Positions 12,284 through 17,935 of a stretch of DNA of 64,000 nucleotides are shown here, in pieces; within the stretch, counting starts at the first letter, position 1, and every line of letters begins with the position of its first letter. Where the stretch lies: assembly GCA_048500275.1 (NCBI GenBank), contig JASNYI010000002.1, positions 347,936 through 411,935 on the forward strand, in the 5' to 3' direction. Under the pieces are notes generated by a model. It saw nothing but the letters and a program-made list of their open reading frames with translations, was not told the DNA's origin and ran no database searches. Position numbers and translations under genes: made by a program. This DNA is from Thermoanaerobaculia bacterium (GTDB taxonomy: Bacteria > Acidobacteriota > Thermoanaerobaculia > UBA5066).

Positions 12284-12982
12284 TCAGCGTCCCGCGACCC
12301 GCTCGTCCGACCGGATGCGCCCGTCGACCATCGTGAGGACCCGGTCGCACCGCCGGGCGATCCTCTCGTCGTGCGTCACGACGAGGAAGGCGGTCCGGTG
12401 CCTCTCCGAGACGGCCCGGAGCAGCTCGAAGACCTGCGCCCCCGACTCCGTGTCGAGGTTCCCCGTCGGCTCGTCGGCCAGGACGAGGGGGGGAGAGAGG
12501 ACCAGGGCGCGCGCCACGGCGACGCGCTGCTGCTGCCCGCCGGAGAGGTTCGTCGCCCGGTAGGACGCCCGGTCGGCGAGGCCGATCTCCTCGAGGAGGG
12601 CGAAGGCCCGCTCCCTCATCCCCTTCTCCTCCCGGCCCCGCGCCGCGAGCAGCGGCATCATCACGTTCTCGAGGGCGGTGAACTCCGGCAGGAGGTGGTG
12701 GAACTGGAACACGAACCCGAGCGTGCGCCCCCTCACGGCGCTCCGCTCGTCCTCGGTGAGGCCCGTCGTGTCCCGGCCGGCGAGGAGGATCCGCCCGGAG
12801 GTGGGGCGGTCGAGGAGGCCGAGGAGGTTGAGGAGCGTGCTCTTGCCGGAGCCGGACGGGCCCACCAGCGCCGTGAACTCGGCGGGAGGAAGGACGAGGT
12901 CGATCCCGTGGAGGACCTCGGTCACGACCTCGACGCCGTAGGACTTGCGGACCCCCTCGAGGACGACGAGCGGCTCAGCCAT
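12284..12982 (-). CDS. ABC transporter ATP-binding protein (DevA/LolD/MacB-ATPase-like)
   Basis: Walker A GPSGSGKST, ABC signature LSGGQQQRV, Walker B LVLADEPT. Confidence 0.9.
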   Translation of the reverse strand: MAEPLVVLEGVRKSYGVEVVTEVLHGIDLVLPPAEFTALVGPSGSGKSTLLNLLGLLDRPTSGRILLAGRDTTGLTEDERSAVRGRTLGFVFQFHHLLPEFTALENVMMPLLAARGREEKGMRERAFALLEEIGLADRASYRATNLSGGQQQRVAVARALVLSPPLVLADEPTGNLDTESGAQVFELLRAVSERHRTAFLVVTHDERIARRCDRVLTMVDGRIRSDERVAGR

Positions 12983-14195
12983 AGCGGATCACGTCGGCCG
13001 GGTCGAGCGAGGCCGCCCGCTCGGCCGGGGCGACGGCTGCGACGAGGCCCGTGATCGTGGCGACGGCGGCGGCGCCGAGGAAGAGGCCGGGCGTCAGGGC
13101 CACCGGGAACGTCGCGGAGCCGTCCGGATTCGTGGCGAGCGAAGCGAAGAAGAACGAGAGCGCGCTGCCGAGGCCGATGCCGAGGACCGAGCCGGCGAGC
13201 CCGAGGACGGCCCCCTGCACGAGGAAGATCCTGACGACCTGGACCGTCCTCGTCCCCATCGCCTTCAGGATGCCGATCTCCCGCGACTTCTGGACGACGG
13301 AGACGACGAGGACGCTCGCGATGCCGAGGGCGACCGCGACGACGACGAAGAACTGGATCATCCAGCTCGACGCGCTCTGGGACCGCAGGCCCACGAGGAG
13401 CTGACGGTTCAGCTTCATCCAGCTGTCGGCCTGGAGGCCGGTCCGGGCGGAGATCTCCGTCGCGACCTCTTCGGCGGCGAAGATCTCGTCCACCTTCAGC
13501 TCGATCGTGGAGATCCCTCCCGCAAGGTCCAGGAGCGTCTGCGCCGCGCGGAGCGACACGAAGACCCAGCGCTCGTTCAGCTCCTTGTTCCCGACGTCGA
13601 AGAGGCCCGCGACGAGGAAGACGTCGGAGCGCCCCGCAGGGGTCTCGAGCCGGACCTTGTCGCCGACCTTCACGCCGAGCTCGGAGGCGAGCTCGACGCC
13701 GAGGGCGGCGTTCGTCCCGTCCACGCGGAACTCGCCGGCCGTCATCCGCGGCGCCATGTCGATGATGCTCCGGAAGCTCGCAGGCTCGATGCCGCGCAGG
13801 GCGACCGACCGGTTCGCGAGGCCCCGGAGCGCGAACGCCGCGCCGGCGACCGTGGGCGAGGCGGCGCGGACCTCGGGGAGGCCCCGGAGGAGGTCGAGCG
13901 TCTGCGGCCAGCCGACGATCGACCGGAGGCGCTGGGCCGGCTTCTCGACCCGCGGCGCGACGGCGAGAGCGGGCCCGGGCTCCGAGATCGGCCGGACGAC
14001 GTCCTCGGGGGCCCTCACGACGACGTGGGCCTGCGTTCCGAGCGTCCTCTCGATGAGCGAGTCCTGTAGACCCGTGATGAGCGCGGAGAGGAAGACGATG
14101 ACGCCGACGCCGACCCCGATTCCGGACAGGATCAGCGCCGTCTGGATGCGCCCCTCGCGCAGGAACCTGAGGGCGACGAGGACCTCGAACGGCAC
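12975..14195 (-). CDS. ABC transporter permease, FtsX/MacB-type (DevC/LolE-like)
   Basis: TM1, then a large periplasmic loop, then three C-terminal TM helices. Overlaps the ATPase gene by 8 nt. Confidence 0.85.
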   Translation of the reverse strand: MPFEVLVALRFLREGRIQTALILSGIGVGVGVIVFLSALITGLQDSLIERTLGTQAHVVVRAPEDVVRPISEPGPALAVAPRVEKPAQRLRSIVGWPQTLDLLRGLPEVRAASPTVAGAAFALRGLANRSVALRGIEPASFRSIIDMAPRMTAGEFRVDGTNAALGVELASELGVKVGDKVRLETPAGRSDVFLVAGLFDVGNKELNERWVFVSLRAAQTLLDLAGGISTIELKVDEIFAAEEVATEISARTGLQADSWMKLNRQLLVGLRSQSASSWMIQFFVVVAVALGIASVLVVSVVQKSREIGILKAMGTRTVQVVRIFLVQGAVLGLAGSVLGIGLGSALSFFFASLATNPDGSATFPVALTPGLFLGAAAVATITGLVAAVAPAERAASLDPADVIRYG

Positions 14196-14196
14196 G

Positions 14197-15372
14197 TCAG
14201 CCTCGCGGGGGCAGAGCGGCCCGGACCCTCTGGCCGTCCTCCGTCTTCCCGGGAGCGCGGACGACCGGATCCCCCTCGGCGAGGCCGGCGAGGACCTCGG
14301 CCACGGCGCCGCCGCGCGCGCCGAGCTTCACGGGGGTCCGCACGGCCCTGCGGCCCCGGATCGCGAGGACCCAGGGGTCCGAGGCGGCATCGCGCACCGC
14401 CTCGAGGGGGAGGACGAGGACGCCCCGCTTCGTCTCGACCTCGAGCTCCACGGAGAGGGTCATGTCGGTTCGCAGCTCGGCGGGAGGATCGGGAACGCGA
14501 AGCTTGACGTCGACCGTTCCTCTCGCGACGTCGACGCCCGGGGAGATGGAGATGACCTCTGCGGCGAAGGACCGGTCCGGAAACGCGTCCGCCGAAGCCC
14601 GGGCCTTCTGGCCGACCTTGAGCGAGGGGAGGTTCTTTTCGTCGGGCTGGGCCAGGAGCTGGGTTTCCCGCTCGAGGGCGAGGACGAGGAGGACCCTCCC
14701 GGGAGAGACCACGTCCCCCGGCTCGACGGACCTGACGAGGACGACACCGGGCTCCGGCGCGACGACGCGATGCTGGTCGAGCCGGGCCTGCGCGGCGGCC
14801 ACGGCGGCCGCTGCGGAACGTTCGTCGACCCCGCCCTCCGCCGCGGCCCTCGCCGCCGCGTCGGCCGAGACGAGGGCGCTCCGGGCGAGGTCGCGGGCTT
14901 TCCTGGCGTCGTCCTCCTCCCGCTCGCTGACGAAGCCCTCCGCGCGCAGCGAGGCGATGCGCGAGAGCTGCCGCTCCTCGAGCGAGAGCCTGAGCGCCGC
15001 CTGCGTCCGCAGCTCTTCGGCCTCCCGCCGCTGGGCTCCGCGCGCCTTTTCGAGCCGCGCCCGGACCTCGGCAAGCCCCGCCGCGGCCTCGCGCTCGTCG
15101 AGCCGGACGAGGAGCTGGCCGGCCTCGACCCGGTCCCCCTCGTCGACGAGGACCGCTTCGACCCTCCCCGTCACGGGGGACCCGAGGGAGGCTTTCGAGC
15201 GGGCCAGGACCCGGCCGCTGACGACGAGAGTCTCGAGGAGGTCGGTCCGCTCGACGAGGACCGCCTCGACGGCGCGGCCGCGGAGGGCCCGGACCGCGAA
15301 GACGAGGAGGAGGAGGGCGAGGAGCGCGGCCGCGACGCGGATCGCTCGGGAGCGGGGCAGGGAGAGGGCCAT
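14197..15372 (-). CDS. HlyD-family periplasmic adaptor / membrane fusion protein (DevB/MacA-like)
   Basis: N-terminal TM helix, coiled-coil region, lipoyl and beta-barrel-like segments. Ends 1 nt before the permease start. Confidence 0.85.
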   Translation of the reverse strand: MALSLPRSRAIRVAAALLALLLLVFAVRALRGRAVEAVLVERTDLLETLVVSGRVLARSKASLGSPVTGRVEAVLVDEGDRVEAGQLLVRLDEREAAAGLAEVRARLEKARGAQRREAEELRTQAALRLSLEERQLSRIASLRAEGFVSEREEDDARKARDLARSALVSADAAARAAAEGGVDERSAAAAVAAAQARLDQHRVVAPEPGVVLVRSVEPGDVVSPGRVLLVLALERETQLLAQPDEKNLPSLKVGQKARASADAFPDRSFAAEVISISPGVDVARGTVDVKLRVPDPPAELRTDMTLSVELEVETKRGVLVLPLEAVRDAASDPWVLAIRGRRAVRTPVKLGARGGAVAEVLAGLAEGDPVVRAPGKTEDGQRVRAALPPRG

Positions 15373-17754: not shown

Positions 17755-17804
17755 CGTCTTCTCCTCCTCGATTCAAGGGCCGGACTTTCCGGTTGCGGCC
17801 AATG

Positions 17805-17820
17805 AGCGAGAAGCGTGCCA
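17805..17820 (-). promoter_or_regulatory. Sigma-54-like promoter element upstream of protease 2
   Basis: Minus strand TGGCACGCTTCTCGCT: GG-N10-GC is exact, one mismatch to TTGC. About 40 nt upstream of the start. Embedded in an unusually AT-rich 180-nt spacer. Confidence 0.5.
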
Positions 17821-17935
17821 TCTGAATCTGCAGGCCTTCCGGGTCGTTTGGGTCAGAAGCTGATCCGATTCAGCCCGAGTTTGGGGGTATTTTGTTGACC
17901 CATGGGTCGGACCGAGACCCGAATGAGACCAATAA

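What the first reader, a model, noticed from the sequence alone, without database searches (positions are those of the whole stretch)
12284..17935. Two tandem secreted M43 metalloprotease paralogs upstream of a DevBCA/MacAB-type tripartite exporter
Two 318-aa pappalysin/ulilysin-type zinc proteases (HEVGHWxGLYHTF) lie head-to-tail on the minus strand. They share the same signal peptide and the rare TTG start, and each has an identical strong Shine-Dalgarno site (GAGGAGGAG). Each gene has its own upstream element and its own hairpin terminator, so they are independently controlled duplicates rather than one read-through operon. An HlyD adaptor, an FtsX-type permease and an ABC ATPase follow immediately downstream on the same strand. 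This could be a dedicated secretion or substrate module for the proteases, or for peptides they process.
Basis: partly seen in the sequence, partly recalled or inferred. Interest (0 to 1): 0.6.

Follow-up and report, generated by a model that had tools for sequence, protein, structure and literature searches.

The report
Sigma-54-driven M43 protease gene pair
Two old duplicate genes for secreted zinc proteases of the mirolysin/ulilysin type each appear to carry their own sigma-54 promoter, enhancer-like sites and terminator, while the ABC exporter next door looks like a separate, phylum-wide operon that is only a neighbour, so the locus is largely ordinary.

Summary
There are two head-to-tail M43 metalloprotease genes of 317 and 319 aa. 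Both have a TTG start, an identical GAGGAGGAG ribosome-binding site and their own hairpin. An HlyD adaptor, a MacB-type permease and an ABC ATPase follow on the same strand.

Conserved half-sites lie at fixed distances upstream of it. This whole layout recurs in all 12 M43 genes examined in the related Thermoanaerobaculia/Holophagales genomes. The motif occurs only twice in the 64-kb window, once before each protease gene.

The duplication is old, not recent. The two copies are 71% identical and group with different orthologues.

A functional link to the exporter is not supported:
- The adjacency exists only inside a roughly 15-kb block that is syntenic throughout one narrow clade.
- More than 70 more distant M43 loci lack the exporter.
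- Exporter orthologues in three other Acidobacteriota contigs, one labelled Geothrix, lack the protease.
- A conserved terminator separates the two, and the exporter has its own conserved upstream motif.

The proteases carry signal peptides of the Sec type and a conserved Arg-Cys motif in the pro-region. This points to zymogens held latent by a cysteine switch. Overall this is a new member of known kinds, of modest interest.

The parts
17896..17920 (-). Candidate enhancer (UAS) for protB: GGGTC-N7-GACCC-N3-GGTCA, three inverted half-sites, starting 100 nt upstream of the TGGCA of the promoter.
   Evidence: The composite pattern occurs only twice in the window, against 0.02 expected. It is conserved at 97-100 nt from the promoter in 12 cassettes.
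17847..17856 (-). CTGACCCAAA box. Its TGACCC lies exactly 35 nt upstream of the promoter TGGCA of protB.
   Evidence: Two matches in the window against 0.19 expected. The 35-nt spacing holds in 11 of 12 cassettes.
17806..17820 (-). Sigma-54-type -24/-12 promoter of protB: TGGCACGcttcTCGC.
   Evidence: One of only two matches to TGGCAC-N5-TNGC in 64 kb, against 0.26 expected. It has the same form as the M. xanthus promoter TGGCACG-N4-TCGCT (PMC9765219).
17761..17769 (-). Shine-Dalgarno sequence GAGGAGGAG of protB.
   Evidence: Read directly from the sequence. Conserved in the 11 clade genes examined.
16801..17754 (-). protB: an M43B (unicellular pappalysin) metalloprotease precursor of 317 aa with a TTG start, a signal peptide, a pro-region carrying GRRCQT, and the motifs HEVGHWMGLYH and FMDYTDD.
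16741..16774 (-). Hairpin after protB with a 15-bp stem, followed by a weak U tract.
   Evidence: -36.7 kcal/mol, z = -5.25. The terminator scan did not call it. The same hairpin is present in L003.
16610..16634 (-). Candidate enhancer (UAS) for protA: GGGTC-N7-GACCC-N3-GGTCA.
16562..16571 (-). CTGACCCGAA box, with TGACCC 35 nt upstream of the promoter TGGCA of protA.
16521..16535 (-). Sigma-54-type -24/-12 promoter of protA: TGGCACGattcTGGC.
16483..16491 (-). Shine-Dalgarno sequence GAGGAGGAG of protA.
15517..16476 (-). protA: an M43B metalloprotease precursor of 319 aa with a TTG start.
   Evidence: It is 100% identical to a database protein (P0001).
15452..15489 (-). Intrinsic terminator after protA: a 12-bp stem followed by UUCUUCCUUU.
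   Evidence: A hairpin is conserved at this position in 8 genomes.
15380..15390 (-). Conserved CGTGCCA(C/G)ACT motif 7 nt before the hlyD ATG. No Shine-Dalgarno sequence is present. It is a candidate promoter element belonging to the exporter operon itself.
14197..15372 (-). Periplasmic adaptor (membrane fusion protein), 391 aa.
   Evidence: HlyD_D23 at 1e-22. TIGR01730 RND_mfp scores 160 bits against a cut-off of 95.
12975..14195 (-). MacB-type permease with MacB_PCD and FtsX domains, 406 aa. Its start lies 1 nt after the hlyD stop.
12284..12982 (-). ABC ATPase of 232 aa, overlapping the permease gene by 8 nt.

Best explanation
The locus holds three separate transcription units on one strand.

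Units 1 and 2 are self-contained protease cassettes. Each consists of:
- upstream inverted half-sites (GGGTC-N7-GACCC-N1-4-GGTCA, then TGACCC);
- a sigma-54 -24/-12 promoter;
- a leader of roughly 35-40 nt;
- a strong Shine-Dalgarno sequence with a conserved TTG start;
- a gene for an M43B precursor;
- a GC-rich terminator hairpin.

The inferred mechanism runs as follows. An as yet unidentified enhancer-binding protein binds the half-sites and activates sigma-54 RNA polymerase. The product is exported by the Sec pathway through a cleavable signal peptide. It stays latent through a pro-region whose conserved Arg-Cys motif blocks the zinc site, as in the mirolysin cysteine switch. After the pro-region is removed, the enzyme cleaves before Lys or Arg, because the S1' aspartate is conserved.

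The two copies are ancient paralogues kept side by side, not a recent duplication.

Unit 3 is the adaptor-permease-ATPase operon. It is a MacB-superfamily exporter conserved across Acidobacteriota, with its own conserved upstream motif. It is a neighbour of the proteases by clade-specific synteny, not a demonstrated partner.

Shown here: the gene content, family membership, conservation of the motifs and their spacing, and the distribution of the synteny. Inferred: sigma-54 dependence, enhancer function, zymogen latency, substrate preference and independence of the exporter.
For: Family membership:
- Pfam Peptidase_M43 passes its cut-off.
- The proteases match mirolysin at 2e-28 and ulilysin at 1e-20.
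- Among 120 homologues, 120 have HExxHxxGxxH, 118 have an [FY]MDY[TS]x[DE] Met-turn and most of these read FMDYTDD, which includes the equivalent of mirolysin Asp289. 117 have an xRCx motif about 168 residues before the zinc site (roles taken from PMC6949598).

Promoter:
- TGGCAC-N5-TNGC occurs only at 16521-16535 and 17806-17820 in 64 kb, against 0.26 expected.
- It lies upstream of all 10 clade M43 genes in the fetched loci, against a background of 0.012 per kb per strand.
- The GC dinucleotide sits 45-52 nt from the TTG.
- No sigma-70-like promoter was found in 12000-18200.
- The window encodes a sigma-54 activator with GAFTGA; Sigma54_activat scores 4.7e-61.

Upstream sites:
- The composite is found only at these two places, against 0.02 expected.
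- Spacing is rigid at 35 nt and 97-100 nt in 12 cassettes, while the intervening sequence diverges.
- This falls in the usual 70-150 bp range for enhancers (PMC3844500).

Cassette behaviour:
- A hairpin is conserved after every copy examined, including a copy at an unrelated locus, L001.

Age of the duplication:
- The copies are 71% identical.
- In the tree, A groups with L003_A, L004_dn and L001, and B with L005, L006 and L007.
- dN between A and B is 0.197, larger than between A and L004_dn at 0.141.

Independence of the exporter.
Against: - No transcription start, RNA-seq or binding data exist for this locus.
- The -12 element reads TGGC or TCGC rather than the consensus TTGC.
- rpoN itself was not seen in the window.
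- The cognate activator is unknown. The only one in the window lies 12 kb away.
- The hairpin after protB has a poor U tract, so some read-through into protA is possible.
- The pro-region motif is Arg-Cys-Gln, not the Cys-Gly of mirolysin and ulilysin. The pro-region is also about 40 residues longer, so the cysteine switch is an inference.
- Within the clade, protease and exporter are always adjacent, which does not exclude a functional link.
Confidence: 0.72

Rival explanations
1. The exporter is functionally coupled to the proteases. It would either move the Sec-exported proteases or their pro-peptides from the periplasm across the outer membrane, or expel peptides that they generate.
For: - The two are adjacent on the same strand in every clade genome seen: L003-L008, L010 and L087.
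- Several further metagenome contigs appear to carry both genes, judged by matching contig lengths.
- From general knowledge, MacB-type pumps with adaptors act on periplasmic substrates. One example is export of the enterotoxin STII peptide by MacAB-TolC.
Against: - The adjacency sits inside a block that is syntenic as a whole, with LpdA about 90% identical across genomes, so it is a single evolutionary event.
- None of more than 70 more distant M43 loci has the exporter. The few weak ABC or FtsX hits are at chance level.
- Exporter orthologues in three other Acidobacteriota contigs, one from Geothrix, lack M43.
- An A-type cassette sits at an unrelated locus without an exporter (L001).
- A conserved terminator and a separate upstream motif divide the units.
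- A folded enzyme of about 27 kDa with two disulfides is an unlikely cargo for a TolC-type duct (inference).
Confidence: 0.08
2. The conserved upstream motif is not a sigma-54 promoter. It would instead be a binding site for a conventional transcription factor or part of a sigma-70 or ECF-type promoter.
For: - The -12 element departs from TTGC at one position.
- No rpoN gene or transcription start data are available.
- In a 72% GC genome, GC-rich motifs are common.
Against: - The full TGGCACG plus a GC dinucleotide is present at the exact 12-nt offset in all 12 cassettes.
- There are only two matches in 64 kb.
- No sigma-70-like site was found.
- Promoters accepted in the literature use the same -12 variants, for example TGGCACG-N4-TCGCT in M. 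xanthus and the TCGC of Salmonella glnA.
- The genome encodes sigma-54 activators.
Confidence: 0.12
3. The genes form one read-through operon (protB, protA, adaptor, permease, ATPase), and the hairpins act only as attenuators or mRNA stabilisers.
For: - All five genes are on the same strand.
- The hairpin after protB has a weak U tract and was not called by the scan.
- There is no Shine-Dalgarno sequence before hlyD, and no canonical promoter was found there.
Against: - Each protease gene has its own complete promoter and enhancer set.
- The hairpin after protA has a U-rich tail and is conserved in 8 genomes.
- Genomes with one or two protease copies keep the same exporter.
- The exporter exists without any protease gene upstream in other Acidobacteriota.
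Confidence: 0.1

Closest known systems
Mirolysin (Tannerella forsythia) and ulilysin (Methanosarcina acetivorans), unicellular pappalysins of MEROPS family M43B
   Same: - Same catalytic domain by sequence (2e-28 and 1e-20).
- Shared HEXXHXXGXXH motif, Met-turn plus Tyr (MDY), S1' aspartate and four catalytic-domain cysteines aligned with the two disulfides.
- An N-terminal pro-region with an unpaired conserved Cys next to Arg (PMC6949598).
   Different: - The pro-region is about 80 residues rather than 34.
- The switch motif reads G-R-R-C-Q-T, not Cys-Gly.
- There is no C-terminal sorting domain of the T9SS type.
- Here the regulation is through a sigma-54-type promoter, which the literature search did not find described for this family.
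Sigma-54 promoters dependent on enhancer-binding proteins, such as the Nla28 targets of Myxococcus xanthus
   Same: - TGGCACG-N4-T(C/G)GC at the expected distance from the gene.
- Clustered inverted half-sites about 60-125 nt upstream.
- A GAFTGA-type activator is encoded in the genome.
   Different: - The half-site sequence (TGACCC/GGGTCA) is unlike the Nla28 consensus CT(C/G)CG(C/G)AG.
- The activator and its signal are unknown.
- Nothing here has been tested experimentally.
MacAB-TolC, DevBCA and LolCDE (MacB-superfamily ABC systems)
   Same: - Gene order adaptor, permease, ATPase, as in devBCA.
- A permease with the MacB periplasmic core domain and an FtsX domain.
- An ATPase most similar to LolD.
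   Different: - The ATPase is separate from the permease, unlike MacB.
- An adaptor is present, unlike Lol.
- Scores fall below every equivalog cut-off (LolCE 162 against 362, LolD 260 against 308, DevA 200 against 296, DevB 45 against 129, MacA 90 against 342), and there was no DevC hit.
- No outer-membrane factor gene was listed next to it in the four annotated exporter contexts (L084-L087).
- The substrate is unknown.

Membership tests
M43B / unicellular pappalysin metallopeptidases | Match to the family profile above the curated threshold | tested here: met
   PF05572 scores 66.3 and 60.5 bits against a cut-off of 23. Mirolysin matches at 2e-28 and ulilysin at 1e-20.
M43B / unicellular pappalysin metallopeptidases | Extended metzincin zinc motif HEXXHXXGXXH | tested here: met
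   HEVGHWLGLYH in protA and HEVGHWMGLYH in protB. The motif is present in 120 of 120 homologues.
M43B / unicellular pappalysin metallopeptidases | Met-turn followed by the tyrosine-switch Tyr and the S1' Asp (mirolysin Met284, Tyr286, Asp289) | tested here: met
   NFMDYTDD aligns with mirolysin NYMDYTYD. The roles of these residues are taken from PMC6949598.
M43B / unicellular pappalysin metallopeptidases | Pro-segment with a cysteine-switch Cys inside a conserved Cys-Gly motif | tested here: inconclusive
   A conserved pro-region Cys preceded by Arg (GRRCQT) is found in 117 of 120 homologues. It is followed by Gln, not Gly, and the pro-region is longer. The pro-region shows no sequence match to solved zymogens.
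M43B / unicellular pappalysin metallopeptidases | Zinc-dependent proteolytic activity with Lys/Arg at P1' | not testable with these tools
   This needs enzyme assays.
Sigma-54-dependent promoter | GG at -24 and GC at -12 at fixed spacing, fitting TGGCACG-N4-TTGCW | tested here: met
   TGGCACGattcTGGC and TGGCACGcttcTCGC. The -24 element matches 7 of 7 positions, the GC sits at the exact offset, and there is one mismatch in the -12 element.
Sigma-54-dependent promoter | Upstream activator sites about 70-150 bp from the promoter | tested here: inconclusive
   Conserved inverted half-sites lie 97-100 nt and 35 nt upstream of TGGCA in 12 cassettes. Binding was not tested.
Sigma-54-dependent promoter | The genome encodes sigma-54 and enhancer-binding proteins | tested here: inconclusive
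   An enhancer-binding protein with Sigma54_activat (4.7e-61), GAFTGA and HTH_8 lies at 29476-33417. No rpoN gene was seen among the parts of the window that were annotated.
Sigma-54-dependent promoter | Transcription start about 12 nt downstream of the GC, and dependence on rpoN | not testable with these tools
   This needs 5'-end mapping and genetics.
DevBCA-type exporter | Matches to the DevB, DevC and DevA subfamily models above their cut-offs | tested here: not met
   DevB scores 44.8 against 129 and DevA 199.8 against 295.8. No DevC hit was listed. Only the gene order is shared.
MacAB | MacB with the ATPase fused to the permease, and a MacA equivalog | tested here: not met
   The ATPase (232 aa) and permease (406 aa) are separate genes. 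MacA scores 90 against 342 and MacB 47-207 against 966.
MacB superfamily (type VII ABC) with a membrane fusion protein | Permease with MacB_PCD and FtsX domains, an ABC ATPase, and a periplasmic adaptor in one operon | tested here: met
   All Pfam domains pass their cut-offs. RND_mfp scores 160 against 95. The genes abut or overlap.
LolCDE lipoprotein release system | LolC/E and LolD equivalog scores, and no adaptor protein | tested here: not met
   lolCE scores 162 against 362 and LolD 260 against 308. An adaptor gene precedes the permease.
Intrinsic terminator | GC-rich hairpin followed by a U tract | tested here: met
   After protA, the scan calls it and the fold gives z = -3.8. After protB the hairpin is strong (z = -5.25) but the U tract is weak, so that one is inconclusive.

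The most novel reading that the evidence does not exclude
The MacB-type adaptor-permease-ATPase pump is the outer-membrane export route, or the pro-peptide or product-peptide disposal route, for the Sec-exported M43 proteases in this clade. This would be a protease-dedicated, periplasm-to-outside ABC secretion module. The sigma-54 cassettes would supply cargo on demand.
Probability: 0.06. Interest if true: 0.6.

Novelty: new member of a known kind. Interest (0 to 1): 0.27.

Why it matters
The finding gives a concrete, testable regulatory model for secreted proteases in a poorly studied, mostly uncultured group (Thermoanaerobaculia/Holophagales, Acidobacteriota).

The model is a conserved sigma-54 promoter with a defined half-site (TGACCC/GGGTCA), a conserved TTG start and a terminator, all inherited as one unit. 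The half-site could be used to look for the cognate activator and for the rest of its regulon. If the enzymes cleave before Lys or Arg, as the conserved aspartate suggests, they would belong to the same specificity class as ulilysin and mirolysin.

It also serves as a caution. Conserved gene adjacency inside one narrow clade does not show that neighbouring genes work together. Nothing here changes current understanding of these families.

Tried and rejected
- Rfam scan of 12000-18500 at E <= 1 gave no hit, so the 324-bp spacer holds no known riboswitch or sRNA.
- The sigma-70 promoter scan found nothing.
- An exact-sequence lookup of protA and of its 100% identical database entry found no contig on record, so the source genome was not recovered. 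The organism was inferred from relatives instead.
- Searching solved structures with the pro-region alone gave only chance hits.
- dS cannot date the duplication, because GC3 of about 95% caps the apparent dS at about 0.3-0.45 for all pairs. The tree and dN were used instead.
- An antisense sigma-54 site in the TGGCAC-containing motif before hlyD was considered. It was rejected because the -12 GC is not conserved in the orthologues.
- The exporter was considered as LolCDE and rejected, because an adaptor is present and the scores fall below cut-off.
- L025 (a Burkholderiales MAG) has FtsX and ABC genes next to an M43 gene. At 26% and 50% identity, and as 1 locus out of about 75, this was judged to be chance.
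- Structure prediction was not run. The sequence evidence for the fold was already decisive, and the tool returns no coordinates with which to test Cys-zinc proximity.

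
Full report
**What is there**

The window has about 72% G+C. On the minus strand between 12284 and 17935 lie five genes:
- protB, 16801-17754, 317 aa, TTG start
- protA, 15517-16476, 319 aa, TTG start
- a membrane-fusion adaptor, 14197-15372, 391 aa
- a permease, 12975-14195, 406 aa
- an ABC ATPase, 12284-12982, 232 aa

Pfam places both proteases in Peptidase_M43 (66 and 60 bits against a cut-off of 23). 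The other three fall in HlyD_D23, in MacB_PCD plus FtsX, and in ABC_tran, all above threshold.

The closest solved structures are mirolysin (2e-28) and ulilysin (1e-20). Upstream on the same strand a GT4-type glycosyltransferase gene ends at 17936. No further M43 copy exists in the window.

- Both genes have tcGAGGAGGAGa 6 nt before a TTG.
- The proteins are 71% identical.
- The N-termini, MNAKPLLAALFLPFALTVMA/APP and MNAKPLLIAALMLPMALTVNA/EQQ, are similar but not identical. By inspection they look like Sec signal peptides cleaved by signal peptidase I, with no lipobox. No predictor was available.
- A strong hairpin follows each gene: -36.7 kcal/mol (z = -5.3) after protB and -32.6 kcal/mol (z = -3.8) after protA. 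Only the second has a clear U-rich tail and is called by the scan.

**Start codon**

I read the start regions of 11 M43 genes from this clade: the two in the window and nine in related contigs. The first in-frame start preceded by a ribosome-binding site is a TTG 5-6 nt after GAGGAGGAGA in every one. This holds even in L006 and L007, where the following codons differ. That is good comparative support for the TTG starts.

**The upstream element is a sigma-54-type promoter with candidate enhancer sites**

I aligned the 330 nt upstream of the 11 genes. Islands of identity stand out in otherwise diverged sequence. The first island is TGGCACG-N4-T(G/C)GC.

This pattern fits the sigma-54 consensus TGGCACG-N4-TTGC(T/A), with GG and GC at the exact offset. 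The protB version, TGGCACG-N4-TCGCT, is the same form as a listed Myxococcus xanthus sigma-54 promoter (PMC9765219). TCGC also occurs in Salmonella glnA (PMC3844500).

Evidence that the match is not chance:
- In the 64-kb window, TGGCAC-N5-TNGC occurs exactly twice, at 16521-16535 and 17806-17820, both on the minus strand. About 0.26 matches are expected.
- In 1.3 Mb of fetched loci the relaxed pattern occurs at 0.012 per kb per strand. Yet it sits before all ten clade M43 genes in those loci.
- The GC dinucleotide lies 45-52 nt from the TTG in all cases.
- No sigma-70-like promoter was found in the region.

Further upstream sit two more conserved elements:
- A TGACCC box lies exactly 35 nt before TGGCA in 11 of 12 cassettes.
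- A composite GGGTC-N7-GACCC-N1-4-GGTCA starts 97-100 nt before TGGCA in all 12 cassettes.
- The composite occurs only at these two places in the window, against 0.02 expected.

The half-sites are mutually inverted. They lie in the range where enhancer-binding proteins usually bind (70-150 bp, PMC3844500). The window encodes a 1313-aa sigma-54 activator at 29476-33417 (Sigma54_activat 4.7e-61, GAFTGA, HTH_8), so the organism presumably uses sigma-54. Whether that protein is the cognate activator is unknown.

**The cassette is inherited as a unit, and the duplication is old**

A hairpin of the form GGGGAGCGGCC-loop-GGCCGCTCCCC follows every clade copy examined, with small variations in the stem. 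This includes a copy that sits at an unrelated locus in L001, between gatB and a DUF481 gene. The unit that is kept together therefore runs from the enhancer sites to the terminator.

In a neighbour-joining tree the copies fall into three groups:
- protA groups with L003_A, L004_dn and L001.
- protB groups with L005, L006 and L007.
- A third type comprises L004_up and L010.

dN between A and B (0.197) exceeds dN between A and its orthologues (0.13-0.14). dS is uninformative because of the extreme codon bias. The pair therefore predates the divergence of these genomes. Copy number at the locus varies between one and two.

**Is the exporter a partner?**

Related genomes were found with the protease as query. 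The nearest are MAGs labelled Holophagales, Thermoanaerobaculia or Acidobacteria. The order glycosyltransferase, M43 (one or two copies), adaptor, permease, ATPase is present in L003-L008, L010 and L087.

In the same genomes the whole surrounding block is also conserved in order: LpdA, glycosyltransferase, acetyl-CoA hydrolase, alanine dehydrogenase, a 211-aa protein, an 85-aa ORF and a protein kinase. LpdA is about 90% identical across them. The adjacency is therefore one inherited arrangement in one narrow clade, not repeated independent association.

Outside the clade the association disappears:
- None of more than 70 M43 loci from Myxococcota, Burkholderiales, other Acidobacteriota and other groups has the exporter.
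- The permease is conserved at 65-71% identity more widely in Acidobacteriota, always with its adaptor and ATPase in the cases examined. There it is flanked by unrelated genes and no M43: L084 from Geothrix, plus L085 and L086.

Inside the clade two features also separate the units:
- A conserved terminator lies between protA and the exporter.
- The adaptor gene has its own conserved motif, CGTGCCA(G/C)ACT, exactly 7 nt before its ATG, with no Shine-Dalgarno sequence.

The exporter genes abut or overlap one another (1-nt gap, 8-nt overlap), as expected for one operon. I conclude that functional coupling is not supported, although it cannot be excluded within the clade.

**What the exporter is**

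By architecture it is a MacB-superfamily pump with a membrane-fusion protein. It fails the curated cut-offs for LolCE, LolD, DevA, DevB and MacA/MacB, and only the generic RND_mfp model passes. 'DevBCA/MacAB-type' is acceptable as a description of gene order and domains, but not as family membership. The substrate is unknown.

**How the proteases probably work**

Among 120 homologues:
- 120 have HExxHxxGxxH.
- 118 have an [FY]MDY[TS]x[DE] Met-turn, in most of them FMDYTDD.
- 117 have an Arg-Cys motif about 168 residues before the zinc site.

In mirolysin, Arg21 fills the S1' pocket by pairing with Asp289, and Cys23 binds the zinc (PMC6949598). The equivalents here are:
- the second Asp of MDYTDD, for Asp289;
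- four cysteines aligned with those that form the two mirolysin disulfides;
- an extra Cys in GRRCQT.

I therefore infer a secreted zymogen with a cysteine switch and a preference for Lys or Arg at P1'. The motif is Cys-Gln rather than Cys-Gly and the pro-region is longer, so this feature is marked inconclusive.

**Novelty and score**

No paper in the searched library links pappalysins to sigma-54, or M43 enzymes to Thermoanaerobaculia. Even so, both the enzyme family and the promoter class are well known, and the exporter is generic.

The useful new point is the conserved promoter-plus-enhancer architecture with a defined half-site. The useful negative point is that the exporter link is not supported. 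This is a new member of known kinds, and I score interest at about 0.27.

Noticed in passing
window 8660-8917 (-), next to 6503-8449 (+): An 85-aa ORF weakly matches PF14407 Frankia_peptide, a family of putative ribosomally synthesised peptides (33 bits, below the cut-off of 48). It sits beside a 648-aa Ser/Thr protein kinase. The pair is conserved in order in all related loci and lies about 3.4 kb beyond the ABC ATPase gene.
   Followed up: partly
window 15380-15390 (-); L004-L007, L010 and L087 at the same position: CGTGCCA(G/C)ACT is conserved exactly 7 nt before the ATG of the adaptor gene, and no Shine-Dalgarno sequence is present. It resembles an extended -10 element (TGnCAGACT), which would give a leaderless or nearly leaderless mRNA. 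More distant exporters (L084, L086) have normal GGAG sites instead.
   Followed up: partly
window 16459-16466 and 17737-17744 (-), codons 4-7 of both protease genes: CCCCUUCU, including a CTT Leu codon that I would expect to be uncommon at this G+C content, is conserved at nucleotide level in 9 of 11 cassettes. It is complementary to the AGGAGG of the Shine-Dalgarno sequence. Minimum-energy folds often pair the two, so a hairpin that hides the ribosome-binding site is possible.
   Followed up: partly
L001 9800-11050 (JGI metagenome contig, 401 kb): An A-type M43 cassette, 80% identical to protA, sits between gatB and a DUF481/mscL pair with no exporter nearby. It keeps the same half-sites, the promoter (TGGCATG-N4-TCGC), the TTG start and the terminator hairpin. 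The cassette was therefore relocated or retained as a whole unit.
   Followed up: partly
window 29476-33417 (+): A 1313-aa sigma-54 enhancer-binding protein with about 1000 N-terminal residues that have no Pfam match apart from a weak TPR hit. The AAA+ domain with GAFTGA and an HTH_8 domain follow.
   Followed up: partly
window 24265-27330 (-): A large open frame of about 1021 codons, measured stop to stop, encodes an S8 subtilase with a proprotein-convertase P-domain. It is a second secreted-protease candidate, about 6.5 kb upstream of protB. An ABC-2 transporter pair lies next to it at 22226-24188.
   Followed up: no
window 700-2409 (+): A NiFe hydrogenase large subunit (PF00374, 5e-221) lies at the start of the window.
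   Followed up: no
L004 8708-9643 and L010 9902-10825: A third, faster-evolving M43 type (63-67% identical to A and B, with dN/dS of about 0.66-0.74 in pairwise comparisons) occupies the same locus in some genomes. The protease is the least conserved gene of the syntenic block.
   Followed up: partly
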